Positions 30,900 through 52,302 of a stretch of DNA of 64,000 nt are shown here, in pieces. The number at the start of each line of letters is the position of its first letter. The stretch's first letter is position 1. Origin of the DNA: the human T2T-CHM13v2.0 reference genome, Homo sapiens; assembly GCF_009914755.1 (NCBI RefSeq), contig NC_060930.1. One strand, given 5' to 3'. Position numbers and translations under genes: made by a program. A model generated the notes under the pieces. That model was not told the DNA's origin. It saw only the letters and a list, made by a program, of their open reading frames with translations, and searched no databases.

Positions 30900-31135
30900 G
30901 CAGTGGCGCAATCTTGGCTCACTGCAACCTCCGCCCCCCTGCTGGAGAGATCCTCCCACCTCAGCCTCCCCAATAGCTGGGACCACTGGCGCGCAGACCA
31001 CGCCCAGCGAATTTTTTGTAGAGAGCCAGGTCGCCATTTTCCACAGGCTGGTGTTGAACTCCTGGGCTCAAGCGATTCGCCACGTCAACCTCTGAAGAAG
31101 GTGCTGGGATTACAAGCATGAGCCACCGCCGCCAG
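30900..31135 (+). promoter_or_regulatory. LIN28B: Alu-derived alternative promoter/first exon of LIN28B (AluJb-LIN28B / LIN28B-TST)
   Basis: C/EBP-like TGGCGCAAT 30904, GC box CCGCCCCC 30931, CCAAT 30970, YY1 CGCCATTTT 31032; donor CAG|GTCAGT at 31136; ~20 kb upstream of the canonical TSS as I recall from published work; exact TSS not determinable from sequence. Confidence 0.75.
31118..31135 (+). CDS. LIN28B: Alu-derived coding part of the alternative first exon (MSHRRQ, ends in phase 0)
   Basis: AAGC-ATG-A (A at -3); ATG AGC CAC CGC CGC CAG|gtcagt; in frame with 44476-44524 and exon 2. Confidence 0.75.
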
Positions 31136-31948
31136 GTCAGTTTATTTCTAAACTCTATTTTTCTTTCTTTCTTTCTGAGATAGGATCTCACTCAGTCGCC
31201 CAGGCTGGAGTTCAGTGGTGCGATCTTAGCTTACTGGAACCTCTGGGTACTGGTCGGGCGGGCAACCTCAGCCTCCCCAAAAGCCGCAACCGCGGGCGCG
31301 CGCCACCACGCCCAGCTAGTATTTTGTAGAGAGGCGGTGACCATTTTGCCCAGGCTGGGGTGCAGGGCCGCAGTCTCGGCTCGCTGCAACCTCCGCCTCC
31401 CGGCTGTCTGCTGAGTACCAGCAGCTGGGACTACAGGCGCCCGCCACCAAGCCTGCCTGATTTTTTGTAGAGACGGTTTCACCATGCTGGTCAGTCTGGT
31501 CTCCAACTCCTGGGCTCAAGTGATCTGCCCGCCTCGGCCTCCCAAAGTGCTGGGATTACAGGCGTGAACCACCGCGCCTGGCCAACTCTATTTTTCAAAT
31601 TGTTTTAATGTAGTATAATAAATATAAAAGCCTAGTTTTTCAACATTGTAACACTCAATACTTGTAATTCGTAAGTAAAATGACGTGATGCCTGGGGTTT
31701 GCTTTCATACACTCCACTCATAAAAAAATAGAGGGCAAGAGAAATATGAAACACTGTATTTTATGTTTTCTAAAGGTCTTGGTAAGTATTTCCTTGAAAA
31801 TATAATCAGGGTGCATTCAGATGCATTCATTAAAAAGCATTTCTTACACACTACCATATTCTAGGAACCGTTGTAGGCATTGGAGATATTAAGAGTAAGA
31901 GCCTGTTCTCTTTGGGAATAATTATTAGATATATTCTAAAAGTAAAGC

Positions 31949-32265
31949 AGGCCAAGCATGGTGGTTCATGCCTGTAATCCCAGTGCTTTGGGAGGCCAAG
32001 ACTGCAAGGATATCTTGCCACCAGAAGTCTGAGAATAGCCTGGGCAACAGAGCAAGAACCTGTCTCTACAAAAAAAAAAAAAAAAAAAAAAAAATTAGGC
32101 AGAAAAAAACCAAAAAAAACAAAAAAATTAGGCGCTTGTAGTCCCGGCCACTCAGGAGGTTGAAGATGGATTCTCACTTGTGCCCAGGAGGTCGAAGCTG
32201 CAGTAGCTAGGAAGGTACTATTGTACACCAGCCTTGGCAACAGAGTGAGACCGAGTCTCTAAAAA
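31949..32265 (+). mobile_element. AluJ with expanded A-rich linker
   Basis: Degenerate sense dimer. Confidence 0.8.
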
Positions 32266-32373
32266 AGGGGAGGTTGGAAATAAGGTAAAATAAATTATGA
32301 CCATGGTCCCAGGTAGAGGGATTCACTTTTATAAAGAAATTGCCAAGGTTCACTTTTAGAAGGAAATTGCCAA

Positions 32374-32680
32374 GGTCAGGCATGGTGGATCACGCCTGTA
32401 ATCCCAGCACTTTGAAGGGCCAGGTGGGCAGACTGCTTGAGGCCAGGAGTTTGAGACCAGCGTGGGCAACATGGTGAAACCCCATCTTTACTAAAAATAC
32501 AAAAATTAGCTGCGTGTGGTAGAGCAGGCCTGTAATCCCAGCTACTTAGGAGACTGAGGCACGAGAATCCCGTGAACCCAGAAGGTGGAGGCTGCAGTGA
32601 GCCAAGATTGCACTACTGCACTCAAGCCTGGGGGACATAGTGAGACCCTGTCTCAAGAAAAAAAAAAAACCTGAAAAGAA
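32374..32680 (+). mobile_element. Alu (J/S)
   Basis: Sense dimer; TSD GAAATTGCCAAG. Confidence 0.85.
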
Positions 32681-34276
32681 AAAGAAATTGCCAAGAGCCA
32701 TACGTAAATGATAAATTCCTTTGTTCTTATGGCTTTTCATTCATTTCTAATCATGCTAACATACTCCTTAATGCTTAGCCTATCAATGTTCATCATCGCC
32801 CCTTTCGGGTACCTTATATGAAATAATACATTAAATATTATAATGTCCCATTTTTTATTTGTGTCACAGGAGCATGATGGCATGATGATAACTAGTTTGA
32901 AATCAAAAAAAAGGATGAACTCTTGAGTGCTGGGATACTAACCCTGGGTTGTGTTTTAATTTTTTATTTTCTGTTTACAATTCTTCTCAGGACTTTAAAT
33001 AGGTATTGCATAAATATACATCACACTTAAATGCTGAAAGGCTTACAAAATACCTAGAAACATAGCTATTAAAAAAAACAGTTCATTCTGTAAGTGCATT
33101 TGTAAGCTCTACTCATAAATAAAAAATTACTATAATGCTTTAAAGTCAAAGCATATCACATTTCAGATGGTGATATAATTAATTGCTGTTTTTCATTTCT
33201 AGTAATCAATGTCCACATCTTTTTCCTCTAAATTATATTTGAAATCATAGTGTAAATTGATACAATGATTATAACTAAGAATTGTATCTGAAAGAATCCT
33301 CTGTACTACTTCGCAAAGTAATGTAAGAAATACTTTACATACTTGCCAGTGAAAAGGCATCTTTAAAGTAAGTGGTATTCACTCCACTAGCTCAATGGAA
33401 AGTTGAGCAGCCATCCAGGGAATTTGCTGAAGGTGGTAGCCAACGTGGAAAATTCTTAGGAGGGGTCACAACAGGATTTTGCTTCTGATCAGTTTGTCTG
33501 CATTGATCTCACTCCCAGGCCAGAGATGCTTTTTTCTAGACTGTGGTTACCCTTGATAGATACATTGGTTTCTTAATCCCAATCCAGAAATTGGAAGGGA
33601 GAAATGTATCATCACACAGCAACGGTTTGGAGATTTGCCTTTTAGTCATACAATAGTAGCCAGTGAACTGGCCTTTATTAGTTACTTTCAAATGAAAGTG
33701 TTTTCATTTGAAAAGTTTTCCACTTTTAATTTGATTTCCTATATTTTAAATTTTTGAACAAATTTTTAGTTTGCTGAAATATTTAATCCCTTTAGTCAGT
33801 TCCACAGAACAGTCCAGATTACAAGGCGATATTCGATTTTTTAGCTGGTCAGATAATGATTGACTAGTACTGTTTAGTTCTGAAAGTCTGATGAGAAACT
33901 ACCCAAAGTATAAGAAAGAACTATAAAATTATCAGGTAGAAAATTATAGGAGAGAAAGCAGTGATATTTTGGGAACATATACCAAAATACCAAGCTAAAT
34001 ATGTGTATATATCACAGTATTTTTGGCCCCAGATCTTGTGGCTCTTTGAGTGATGATGATTAAGTTTGTATCATCCAATTTGACGTTGAGTATCTTATTG
34101 TTTAGGAAAAGAAACAGCTGACAGTAGGTTCCCCAAACTTCTGGCATTGTCTACCATGCTCACTGGATTCTGAAATACATGACTATTATTACCTTGAATT
34201 GTGCTGTTCGGAATGATGTCCAGGGCATCTGTAGTAAAAGAAAAGAAGACCTGGGCTTCAGATATGATTTTGTTAC

Positions 34277-50789: not shown

Positions 50790-51090
50790 GTAAGGCACGC
50801 GTGTGCACATATATGACTGCCTTTTTTTCTAAATCTATGATTCACAAGGTCCCTCCATTGTGTTTAAGTAGAAGCACGAAATCAGCATTCTGATTTATCC
50901 TAAAGAAGCGTTCCAAATTGTCTTTAAGATAACATGTTTGAGTTTTTCGTGTTCATTCATAAATTATTTTGATGTCAGCATAGATGAAATGGCGATTGGT
51001 TATCTCTTCCTCTTGCCAGCCCCTTAAGGATACGAGGTGAAATTAGTAGCAAGAAAGCATGTAATTGACAAAGTCACGTGTGCTCAGGGG
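50790..51090 (+). promoter_or_regulatory. LIN28B: Canonical LIN28B proximal promoter
   Basis: CACGCGTG 50796-50803, YY1-like AAATGGCG 50987, inverted CCAAT (ATTGG) 50995, E-box GTCACGTG 51073-51080 (LIN28B is an established MYC target). Confidence 0.75.
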
Positions 51091-51265
51091 GCCAGAAACT
51101 GGAGAGAGGAGAGAAAAAAATCAAAAGAAGGAAAGCACATTAGACCATGCGAGCTAAATTTGTGATCGCACAAAATCAAGATGTTAGATTGATGCAGAAG
51201 ATCACTCCGTTCCAAAGGGAAAGTTTTCATCTCACGAGTTTGGAGCTGAGGGCCCGTGGGGCAAC
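51063..51265 (+). other. LIN28B: LIN28B canonical 5'UTR (exon 1; start approximate)
   Basis: Contiguous with the start codon; recognised leader sequence; uAUGs at 51147, 51181 and 51192. Confidence 0.75.
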
Positions 51266-51275
51266 ATGGCCGAAG
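51266..51275 (+). CDS. LIN28B: LIN28B exon 1 coding part (M-A-E-G, phase 1)
   Basis: Strong Kozak GCAACATGG; donor AAG|GTTAAT; splices in frame to 52115. Confidence 0.95.
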
Positions 51276-52114
51276 GTTAATTTTCTTTTCTATTGTTTTA
51301 CTGTGAATTTCTTTCTTCTTTTCTCCTCCCCCTCCCCCTCTCCCACCCTTCTTAGACCGTCCCCCCCCTTCCCCTTTTACCCCAATACTGGGCATTACCT
51401 CCCAACCCCCCATCACGCAGTGGGGCTTTCTGCAAACCTATTGTTATAGATCTCCAAAAATGTTTTGTACCGCCCACACTGATTCACAACTTGAAAAGCT
51501 TTCAGGGGGCTATTGTTTGAATTGTGTGAGTGTGATTAAGCGCAGTTTCAGTTAGTGATTCCAAGAAAACTTTTATACACCTGCCCCCTCCCCCATTCCA
51601 CCCCAACTTTAATTGAAAGTTATGGGGGGGAGGGGAATGCACATTGCAAATAACGCTGGATTCAGTGCTGCCCCATGTGCCTTAACTAGTAGCTCTAAAC
51701 CATCTTCACGATTTCTCTTTCCTCCTCGTGCCCGCCGGAGAGAATAGTTTCGCTGAAAATTTCTCTTTGTCAATGGGATCAGTATTAAATCAGCAATATA
51801 CAAGTAAAGTATCGCATGCTGTAATGTAAAATGTGGCTGAAAAATGGAGTTAAATGAATAAGTACACGTATGTATAGAAACGTGGAAGTTGGTGTGATCG
51901 ATAGAACAGTGTGGCTTCCCCCTCCCCCGCTTTCCTTTTAACCCTTTTCATTTTAAGTATTTTCTGTGGAGAAAAGAAATCAAACCATTAAAAAAAATTT
52001 TTTTTTTCTGTTACCCTTCCCCCCCAACCCCAGGCAGGCAATTTTTTTTTTTTAATCTTTGAATGCACATTGAATGGGAATACAGACTGACTTTTTTGTC
52101 CTGTTCCTTCTCAG

Positions 52115-52302
52115 GCGGGGCTAGCAAAGGTGGTGGAGAAGAGCCCGGGAAGCTGCCGGAGCCGGCAGAGGAGGAATCCCAGGTTTTGCGCGGAACTGGC
52201 CACTGTAAGTGGTTCAATGTGCGCATGGGATTTGGATTCATCTCCATGATAAACCGAGAGGGAAGCCCCTTGGATATTCCAGTCGATGTATTTGTACACC
52301 AA
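52115..52302 (+). CDS. LIN28B: LIN28B exon 2 (188 nt), N-terminal half of the cold-shock domain; the gene continues beyond the window
   Basis: GASKGGGEEPGKLPEPAEEESQVLRGTGHCKWFNVRMGFGFISMINREGSPLDIPVDVFVHQ with RNP1/RNP2 motifs; branch CTGAC 52087-52091, acceptor TTCCTTCTCAG|, donor CAA|GTAAGC. Confidence 0.98.

What the first reader, a model, noticed from the sequence alone, without database searches (positions are those of the whole stretch)
31118..52249. Candidate system: promoter choice as a uORF-based translational rheostat for LIN28B
Seen: the three leaders differ sharply. The Alu leader has no ATG between 30813 and 31117. The CpG-island leader has a 10-codon uORF ending on an AUGA overlap. 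The canonical leader has three uAUGs, including a good-context overlapping ORF that rules out reinitiation at the main ATG. Inference: switching to the Alu promoter changes not only mRNA level and N-terminus but also removes a translational brake on a let-7-blocking oncofetal protein. I am not aware of this having been described, but cannot search.
Basis: partly seen in the sequence, partly recalled or inferred. Interest (0 to 1): 0.8.

Follow-up and report, generated by a model that had tools for sequence, protein, structure and literature searches.

The report
LIN28B leaders differ in upstream ORFs
The three annotated 5' leaders of human LIN28B do differ in upstream start codons as described, but the two main parts are already published, and the idea that switching promoters lifts a translational brake is plausible and untested.

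Summary

- **Canonical exon 1** has uATGs at 51147, 51181 and 51192. Those at 51147 and 51192 open an out-of-frame ORF (87 codons from 51147) that runs past the main ATG (51266) and stops at 52249.
- **The Alu exon** (31007-31135) has no ATG before 31118.
- **The CpG-island exon** opens a 10-codon uORF whose stop overlaps the in-frame ATG at 44491.

The ATG counts are not beyond chance.

Two parts are already in print. By position and layout, the overlapping ORF matches the Lin28b uORF that encodes the microprotein PLUM (PMC12657964, PMC4712605). The Alu leader is the AluJb-LIN28B / LIN28B-TST transcript.

Ten full-text searches found no paper joining the two. The joined idea is that the Alu promoter skips exon 1, so it drops the competing ORF and also the ability to make PLUM. 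Promoter-dependent uORF content is a known kind of control (MDM2, TP53BP1).

No translation measurement exists here. A published amplicon length and a reported 258-aa isoform hint at a 76-nt extra exon. That exon would turn the Alu ATG into a uORF start.

Verdict: real features, new member of a known kind, moderate interest.

The parts
30865..31137 (-). Alu element lying antisense to LIN28B. Its left arm supplies the alternative first exon. The literature calls it AluJb; I did not test the subfamily.
   Evidence: Sub-threshold Metazoa_SRP matches on the minus strand at 30865-31008, and at the neighbouring Alus 30712-30828 and 31329-31582. The 21-nt Alu motif at 31106-31126 is one of 40 copies in the window. 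The outer limits are my estimate from the sequence.
31007..31135 (+). Alu-derived first exon of LIN28B (AluJb-LIN28B / LIN28B-TST), with a 111-nt leader free of ATG.
   Evidence: RefSeq exon from the hub table. Donor CAG|GT. No ATG in 31007-31117. The published TE-transcript forward primer maps at 31110.
31118..31120 (+). First ATG of the Alu transcript. It is in frame with LIN28B through exon 44476-44524 and gives 22 new N-terminal residues.
   Evidence: It agrees with the '22 amino acids' attributed to Jang 2019 in PMC10760525. The ATG sits at a CpG-decay position of the Alu motif: 17 of 40 copies in the window carry CATG there and 13 carry CGTG.
34300..35600 (.). CpG island that holds the third LIN28B first exon (+) and the first exon of LIN28B-AS1 (-, 34393-34542).
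   Evidence: GC 0.73-0.75 and CpG observed/expected 0.99-1.06. Exon positions from the hub table.
34980..35027 (+). CpG-island first exon. ATG 35014 opens a 10-codon uORF.
   Evidence: No other ATG lies between 34846 and 35013.
44476..44524 (+). 49-nt middle exon. It sets the frame for the Alu ATG, holds the in-frame ATG 44491, and holds the stop (44492-44494) of the CpG-leader uORF.
   Evidence: AG acceptor and GT donor.
51122..51275 (+). Canonical exon 1, with a 144-nt leader carrying three uATGs (51147, 51181, 51192) and the main ATG at 51266.
51147..52249 (+). Overlapping out-of-frame ORF of 87 codons (51147-51275 joined to 52115-52249). It is the positional counterpart of the published Lin28b uORF that encodes PLUM.
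   Evidence: (87 aa, pI 10.5). PMC12657964 describes an ATG-started uORF with a partial Kozak context that overlaps exons 1 and 2 of the CDS in another frame, 85 aa in mouse.
51181..51192 (+). 3-codon uORF whose stop shares one base with uATG 51192.
52115..52302 (+). LIN28B exon 2, common to all leaders. It holds the start of the cold-shock domain in the main frame.
   Evidence: Pfam CSD, E = 2.8e-05, over residues 27-62 of the translation of 52117-52302.
37014..37089 (+). Hypothetical 76-nt cassette exon. It is not annotated in the hub table and is unproven.
   Evidence: It is the best of 65 AG-N76-GT candidates, and its crude splice score of 14.1 is like that of the real exons. It would give exactly the published 181-bp amplicon and a 258-aa protein starting at 44491. 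However, 14 of 101 other lengths reach that score by chance.

Best explanation
LIN28B can be transcribed from three annotated first exons whose leaders offer scanning ribosomes different choices.

Canonical mRNA. This mRNA is dual-coding. The first AUG (51147) has a purine at -3 and opens an out-of-frame ORF that overlaps the LIN28B start. This ORF is the human counterpart of the PLUM microprotein uORF. Ribosomes that start there, or at 51192, make PLUM-frame protein and cannot make LIN28B. LIN28B is reached by leaky scanning. It may also be reached by reinitiation after the 3-codon uORF at 51181, whose stop lies 73 nt before the main AUG.

Alu-driven mRNA. This mRNA skips exon 1 altogether. 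In the RefSeq splice form its first AUG is already in the LIN28B frame. I therefore predict more LIN28B per mRNA and no PLUM.

CpG-island mRNA. This leader is predicted to lie in between. It has one short uORF, which ribosomes can pass by leaky scanning or by reinitiation at an overlapping stop-start.

Shown here: the sequence anatomy.
Shown in print: translation of the uORF and existence of PLUM in mouse, and PLUM expression in human primed ESC; use of the Alu promoter in tumours and placenta.
Inferred: the direction and size of the translational difference between leaders, and the uncoupling of LIN28B from PLUM.
For: - Anatomy and frames.
- The main frame is the cold-shock-domain frame.
- None of the three leaders is more structured than shuffled sequence. 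The MFE z-scores are 0.07 (canonical), 1.3 (Alu) and 1.7 (CpG), so uAUG content is the main predicted difference.
- PMC12657964 (sections 6, 7 and 13) reports Ribo-seq, a Flag construct whose signal was lost on ATG-to-TAA mutation, an antibody and LC-MS for the uORF product. It reports PLUM expression in human primed ESC (its Supplementary Fig. 6c, not seen). [quoted passage not shown] It cautions that the uORF may inhibit Lin28b translation.
- Its source data show equal reporter values for the WT, NU, TAA and SK constructs in Supplementary Fig. 2d. I take these to be mRNA controls.
- PMC4712605 (passages) reports a translated Lin28b uORF in mouse ESC that is conserved in vertebrates.
- Use of the Alu promoter and the extended protein: passages in PMC10363060, PMC10296230 and PMC10760525.
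- Established knowledge, recalled: the Kozak scanning rules, and the repression of a main ORF by an overlapping uORF. The latter is also drawn in PMC13631847, Fig. 3 legend.
Against: - No translation efficiency has been measured for any human leader.
- The ATG counts are what chance gives.
- LIN28B and PLUM are both made from the canonical mRNA, so the brake is partial.
- PMC12657964 saw almost no uORFs changing opposite to their main ORFs across cell types. A frameshift knockout of the uORF left Lin28b protein unchanged. That second result is expected if initiation, not the peptide, matters.
- The figure behind the start-codon statement sits in a supplementary PDF that I could not read.
- uATG 51147 lies only 25 nt from the annotated TSS, so slightly downstream TSSs would weaken or remove it.
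- Review PMC10296230 attributes the greater protein yield of LIN28B-TST to protein stability.
- A 181-bp amplicon is reported where the RefSeq structure gives 105 bp. A 258-aa isoform is reported for the AluJb start region. Both fit a variant in which the Alu ATG opens a 15-codon uORF.
- The CpG-island leader rests on a RefSeq model, and the connectivity is my inference.
Confidence: 0.55

Rival explanations
1. The leader differences are incidental. The Alu promoter raises LIN28B through more transcription and through a more stable, N-terminally extended protein. Translation per mRNA is about the same from all leaders.
For: Review PMC10296230 reports that Guo 2018 found the extra N-terminal residues increase protein stability and hence protein product. 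The ATG counts in all leaders are within chance. The Alu ATG is a common CpG-decay variant of the Alu motif, present in 17 of 40 copies in the window, so nothing suggests selection on the Alu leader.
Against: The overlapping uORF is translated well enough to give a detectable protein. Those ribosomes are necessarily lost to LIN28B. The authors state that its start codon regulates the main ORF.
Confidence: 0.3
2. The Alu leader is not free of uORFs. The prevalent Alu transcript carries an extra 76-nt exon, with 37014-37089 as the candidate. The Alu ATG then opens a 15-codon uORF that ends 61 nt before ATG 44491, and LIN28B starts at 44491 (258 aa). All three leaders would then hold at least one uORF, and the graded series would be flatter.
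For: The published primers map at 31110 and 52125 and give 105 bp on the RefSeq structure, while the paper lists 181 bp. The preprint 10.1101/2025.04.29.651292 gives 258 aa for the AluJb start region. That number equals a start at 44491 if the canonical protein has 250 aa (recalled). The candidate exon gives exactly 181 bp. Its splice sites score like real ones.
Against: RefSeq lists no such exon in the hub table. PMC10760525 quotes Jang 2019 for 22 added residues, which fits the structure without it. 14 of 101 other lengths give an equally good candidate by chance. The 181 figure could be a table error. The 258-aa protein is also what the CpG-island transcript encodes. The preprint contradicts itself on which cell state uses the Alu start.
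Confidence: 0.25
3. The canonical upstream ORF exists mainly to make PLUM, a protein with its own function. Its effect on LIN28B dosage is minor. What promoter choice changes is the coding repertoire (PLUM made or not), not a rheostat on LIN28B.
For: PLUM has knockout phenotypes without a change in Lin28b protein. It is reported as conserved among mammals. The Alu and CpG transcripts hold no ATG in the PLUM frame upstream of exon 2.
Against: This is compatible with the best explanation rather than exclusive of it. The authors themselves flag an inhibitory effect on the main ORF.
Confidence: 0.35

Closest known systems
Lin28b uORF encoding the microprotein PLUM (Hao et al. 2025, PMC12657964). 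A translated Lin28b uORF was seen earlier in mouse ESC (PMC4712605).
   Same: It is an ATG-started ORF in the 5'UTR with a partial Kozak context. It overlaps exons 1 and 2 of the CDS in another frame. It is 85 aa in mouse and 87 codons here.
   Different: I could not align the human ORF with the mouse protein, so the match is by position and layout only. The paper's main text never uses the word 'promoter' (0 occurrences), so it does not consider transcripts that lack exon 1.
AluJb-LIN28B / LIN28B-TST (Jang 2019 and Guo 2018, both seen only as quoted by others; placental expression in PMC10363060).
   Same: The same Alu-derived first exon; the published primer maps at 31110. It sits about 20 kb upstream of canonical exon 1 and gives 22 added residues.
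   Different: In what I could read, those accounts deal with transcription, DNA methylation, NFYA and protein stability. They do not deal with uORF content or PLUM.
MDM2 P1/P2 promoter toggling (Hollerer et al., 10.1101/264721, abstract seen).
   Same: An oncogene has two promoters. One mRNA isoform carries inhibitory uORFs and is poorly translated; the other is well translated.
   Different: In MDM2 the distal promoter gives the uORF-laden isoform and interferes with the proximal one. Here the distal (Alu) leader is the one without uAUGs. Interference was not examined. Translation was not measured.
TP53BP1 / SEP53BP1 (PMC10193022, abstract seen).
   Same: Promoter switching decides whether a small protein from an ORF overlapping the main CDS is made.
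   Different: There the alternative promoter's uORF enables reinitiation at an internal overlapping ORF. Here the alternative promoter would abolish the small protein by dropping its start codon.
TE-derived upstream ATGs (passage in PMC13690279).
   Same: Transposable-element sequence in a 5' leader changes the translational input to a main ORF.
   Different: In the reported cases the element adds uORFs. Here the TE-derived leader lacks them, and its own ATG serves as the start codon in the RefSeq splice form.

Membership tests
Overlapping-uORF translational repression | An AUG upstream of the main AUG, inside the transcribed leader | tested here: met
   uATGs at 51147, 51181 and 51192 lie within RefSeq exon 1, 51122-51275. 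This depends on the annotated TSS; 51147 is 25 nt from it.
Overlapping-uORF translational repression | The ORF is out of frame and ends downstream of the main AUG | tested here: met
   The 87-codon ORF ends at 52249 in exon 2.
Overlapping-uORF translational repression | The uORF is translated | not testable with these tools
   Print only: Ribo-seq, tagged constructs, antibody and LC-MS in mouse, and expression in human primed ESC.
Overlapping-uORF translational repression | Removing the uAUG raises main-ORF output | not testable with these tools
   Stated in PMC12657964 with reference to Supplementary Fig. 2c-e. That PDF was not readable. Only the equal values of Fig. 2d were seen.
Promoter-dependent leader isoforms with different translation (MDM2 type) | Two or more start sites give mRNAs with the same main coding body but different leaders | tested here: met
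   Three first exons all join exon 2 in frame. The Alu and CpG exons do so through the 49-nt exon. Use of the Alu and canonical promoters is in print.
Promoter-dependent leader isoforms with different translation (MDM2 type) | The leaders differ in uORF content | tested here: met
   3, 1 and 0 uATGs on the RefSeq structures. This is uncertain for the Alu leader if a 76-nt exon variant exists.
Promoter-dependent leader isoforms with different translation (MDM2 type) | A measured difference in translation efficiency between isoforms | not testable with these tools
   No isoform-resolved polysome or Ribo-seq data were within reach.
Promoter-dependent leader isoforms with different translation (MDM2 type) | Transcriptional interference of the distal promoter on the proximal one | not tested
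   It would need chromatin and expression data.
TE-promoter exaptation (AluJb-LIN28B) | The first exon lies in a transposable element | tested here: met
   7SL-like matches on the minus strand and the Alu motif at 31106-31126. Subfamily AluJb was not tested; the name comes from the literature.
TE-promoter exaptation (AluJb-LIN28B) | Splices in frame to the host gene | tested here: met
   ATG 31118 is in frame through 44476-44524. Direct splicing to exon 2 would be out of frame.
ATF4/GCN4-type delayed reinitiation | A short permissive uORF comes first, followed by an inhibitory uORF that overlaps the main start | tested here: not met
   The first AUG (51147) already opens the overlapping ORF. 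The 3-codon uORF (51181) comes second, and its stop abuts the second AUG of the overlapping frame. The resemblance is partial only.

The most novel reading that the evidence does not exclude
At the human LIN28B locus, the choice between the Alu-derived and the canonical promoter switches the locus from two proteins (PLUM plus LIN28B) to one (LIN28B with a new N-terminus and no competing upstream ORF). Placenta, some pluripotent states and tumours that use the Alu promoter would then get a high LIN28B dose without PLUM. PLUM is reported to hold cells in the primed state and to restrain an oxidative-phosphorylation burst. TE exaptation would thus rewire coding output and translation as well as transcription.
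Probability: 0.3. Interest if true: 0.7.

Novelty: new member of a known kind. Interest (0 to 1): 0.45.

Why it matters
LIN28B dose controls let-7 and matters in development, placenta and many cancers. AluJb-LIN28B is a leading example of a transposable element driving an oncogene.

If the leaders are translated differently, mRNA levels misjudge LIN28B protein, and isoform identity would have to be measured.

The Alu transcript cannot encode PLUM from its own start codon. Tissues using that promoter would therefore separate two proteins that the canonical mRNA makes together. This bears on how LIN28B knockouts, knock-downs and tumour data are read.

It also gives simple, testable predictions for a recently described microprotein.

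Tried and rejected
- **Papers not held:** Guo 2018, Jang 2019, Mudge 2022 and Chen 2020. What I say of the first two is second hand. Human Ribo-seq ORF catalogues could not be consulted.
- **PLUM paper supplements:** the supplementary PDFs (including Figs 2c-e and 6c) cannot be read here. The source-data sheet gave only Fig. 2d values.
- **Long-read CAGE paper:** a search of its held supplement for LIN28B found nothing.
- **Paper cap:** it was reached before I could open the splice-junction preprint that mentions LIN28B-TST.
- **Cross-species conservation** of the uATGs, the middle exon and the CpG exon could not be tested. No vertebrate genomes are within reach of these tools. The spliced ORF could not be passed by reference, so no homology search or fold of the 87-residue product was made.
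- **RNA structure** as the source of the leader differences is rejected: the MFE z-scores are 0.07, 1.3 and 1.7.
- **Selection on ATG depletion or enrichment** is not supported by the shuffles.
- **An ATF4-type arrangement** was considered and not met (see the membership test).
- **Alternative donor or acceptor sites adding exactly 76 nt** to known exons were checked. None has the needed GT or AG.
- **Two find calls failed on term syntax**. The first was corrected and repeated.

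
Full report
**Observation**

I read the three annotated first exons, the 49-nt middle exon and exon 2. I then rebuilt the spliced leaders from the window in a script.

*Canonical exon 1 (51122-51275)* has three upstream ATGs.
- 51147 has A at -3 and C at +4 and lies 25 nt from the annotated TSS. It opens an out-of-frame ORF of 87 codons that crosses into exon 2 and stops at 52249.
- 51181 has A at -3 and opens a 3-codon ORF. Its stop shares its last base with the third ATG.
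- 51192 is in a weak context and in the same frame as 51147.
- The main ATG (51266) has A at -3 and G at +4.
- The frame I call main is the cold-shock-domain frame (Pfam CSD, E = 2.8e-05).

*The Alu exon (31007-31135)* has no ATG before 31118. None occurs back to 30813 either. ATG 31118 is in frame with LIN28B only through exon 44476-44524 and gives 22 new residues.

*The CpG-island exon (34980-35027)* has ATG 35014. This opens a 10-codon ORF whose stop overlaps the in-frame ATG 44491.

The finding's end points, 31118 and 52249, are the Alu ATG and the stop of the overlapping ORF.

**Is it more than chance?**

It is not, by counts.
- Dinucleotide shuffles give 2.82 ATG for the canonical leader, where 3 are seen.
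- They give 1.14 for the Alu leader, where 0 are seen (P = 0.24).
- They give 2.68 for 30813-31117, where 0 are seen (P = 0.035).
- An 87-codon open frame arises in 2.9% of shuffles.

The Alu start codon sits at a CpG-decay position of a standard Alu motif. Of 40 copies of that motif in the window, 17 carry CATG there and 13 carry CGTG.

The exon lies in an Alu antisense to the gene: 7SL-like matches fall on the minus strand.

The three leaders show no unusual folding, with z-scores of 0.07, 1.3 and 1.7.

The third exon lies in a true CpG island, while the canonical promoter is AT-rich.

**What is already known**

*The overlapping ORF.* It matches a published one by position and layout. Hao et al. 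2025 (PMC12657964; I read sections 4, 6, 7, 13, 18 and 21 and part of the source data) describe a uORF in mouse Lin28b.
- It starts with ATG, has a partial Kozak context, and overlaps exons 1 and 2 of the CDS in another frame.
- It encodes an 85-aa microprotein, PLUM.
- It is supported by Ribo-seq, a tagged construct whose signal was lost on ATG-to-TAA mutation, an antibody and LC-MS.
- It is said to be highly conserved among mammals and expressed in human primed ESC.
[quoted passage not shown] They caution that the uORF may inhibit Lin28b translation.
- The figure behind this is in a PDF I could not read.

Popa et al. 2016 (PMC4712605, passages) had already seen a translated, conserved Lin28b uORF in mouse ESC.

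*The Alu leader.* It is the AluJb-LIN28B / LIN28B-TST transcript.
- The published primer maps at 31110.
- The '22 amino acids' quoted from Jang 2019 fit my model.
- It is expressed in placenta (PMC10363060).
- A review reports that Guo 2018 found the extended protein to be more stable (PMC10296230).
- I could not read Guo 2018 or Jang 2019 themselves.

**What is new**

None of ten full-text searches turned up a paper that connects the two. The main text of the PLUM paper does not contain the word 'promoter'.

The connection follows directly from the anatomy. The Alu and CpG transcripts skip exon 1, so they lack all three uATGs and the PLUM start. They hold no ATG in the PLUM frame upstream of exon 2.

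**Mechanism**

Under the scanning model (established knowledge, recalled), ribosomes that start at 51147 or 51192 end 145 nt of mRNA beyond the start of the main ATG and cannot make LIN28B.
- LIN28B from the canonical mRNA thus depends on leaky scanning. It may also depend on reinitiation after the 3-codon uORF.
- The Alu mRNA in its RefSeq form offers an in-frame AUG first.
- The CpG mRNA has one short uORF with an overlapping stop-start.

A graded series is therefore predicted: canonical lowest, CpG in between, Alu highest.

A further inference concerns mRNA decay. The overlapping ORF stops 53 nt before the exon 2-exon 3 junction, and more junctions lie downstream (the gene has four exons). 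Canonical mRNA may therefore also be exposed to nonsense-mediated decay.

**Against**

- Nothing here measures translation.
- The brake must be partial, since both proteins come from the canonical mRNA.
- Hao et al. saw almost no uORFs moving opposite to their main ORFs.
- Protein stability is a published alternative for the higher protein yield.
- The CpG leader rests on a RefSeq model and on my inferred connectivity.

Two published numbers also disagree with the RefSeq Alu structure.
- The primers should give 105 bp, but 181 bp is listed.
- A preprint gives 258 aa for the AluJb start region. That equals a start at 44491, taking the canonical protein as 250 aa (recalled).

A 76-nt candidate exon at 37014-37089 has good splice sites and would explain both numbers. 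It would also make the Alu ATG a 15-codon uORF start. The candidate is weakly supported: 14 of 101 other lengths do as well by chance.

The preprint also contradicts itself on whether primed or naive hESC use the Alu start.

**Comparison with known systems and verdict**

Promoter-dependent uORF content is a known kind of control.
- MDM2 P1/P2 is one example (10.1101/264721, abstract).
- TP53BP1/SEP53BP1 couples promoter choice to a small overlapping-frame protein (PMC10193022, abstract).

Here the polarity differs from MDM2, because the distal leader is the clean one. The element that removes the uORFs is a transposable element, whereas the reported TE cases add uATGs.

I file this as a new member of a known kind. 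It is made of two already published parts, with a plausible, testable and so far unmeasured link between them.

Noticed in passing
window 37014-37089: A candidate unannotated 76-nt cassette exon. It would reconcile a published 181-bp amplicon (the RefSeq structure gives 105 bp) and a reported 258-aa isoform. It would turn the Alu ATG into a 15-codon uORF start.
   Followed up: partly
window 31118-31135 joined directly to 52115-52249: If the Alu exon were spliced straight to exon 2, skipping the 49-nt exon, the Alu ATG would fall in the PLUM frame. It would give a 50-residue product sharing the PLUM C-terminal part and its stop at 52249. The 49-nt exon thus decides which of the two frames the Alu ATG feeds.
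   Followed up: no
window 51181-51194: The stop of the 3-codon uORF and the next ATG of the overlapping frame share one base (a TGATG arrangement). This mirrors the ATGA overlap in the CpG leader at 44491-44494.
   Followed up: no
window 31048-31121: Two CTG codons with a purine at -3 and G at +4 lie in the Alu leader. CTG 31048 opens a 15-codon ORF. CTG 31104 opens a 5-codon ORF whose stop overlaps the Alu ATG. They matter only if near-cognate initiation occurs there.
   Followed up: no
window 34393-35027: The first exon of LIN28B-AS1 (minus strand, ends at 34542) and the CpG-island first exon of LIN28B (plus strand, starts at 34980) sit about 440 nt apart in one CpG island. This looks like a bidirectional promoter (hub table).
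   Followed up: no
window 30885-31459: Sub-threshold Rfam matches to mir-3135 and mir-1268 fall inside the Alus. All are far below the gathering scores (29-38 bits against 80-83). They most likely reflect Alu sequence and not microRNA genes.
   Followed up: no
window 30798-30818 and 31106-31126: Two neighbouring antisense Alus both end in the same motif carrying an ATG (30810 and 31118). Only the second is followed by a usable GT donor in the annotated exon.
   Followed up: no
preprint 10.1101/2025.04.29.651292 (no window place): Its Results say primed hESC use the AluJb start region and naive cells use another. Its Discussion says the AluJb start is specific to naive hESC. If the latter is right, promoter choice would parallel the reported high PLUM in primed cells and low PLUM in naive cells.
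   Followed up: no
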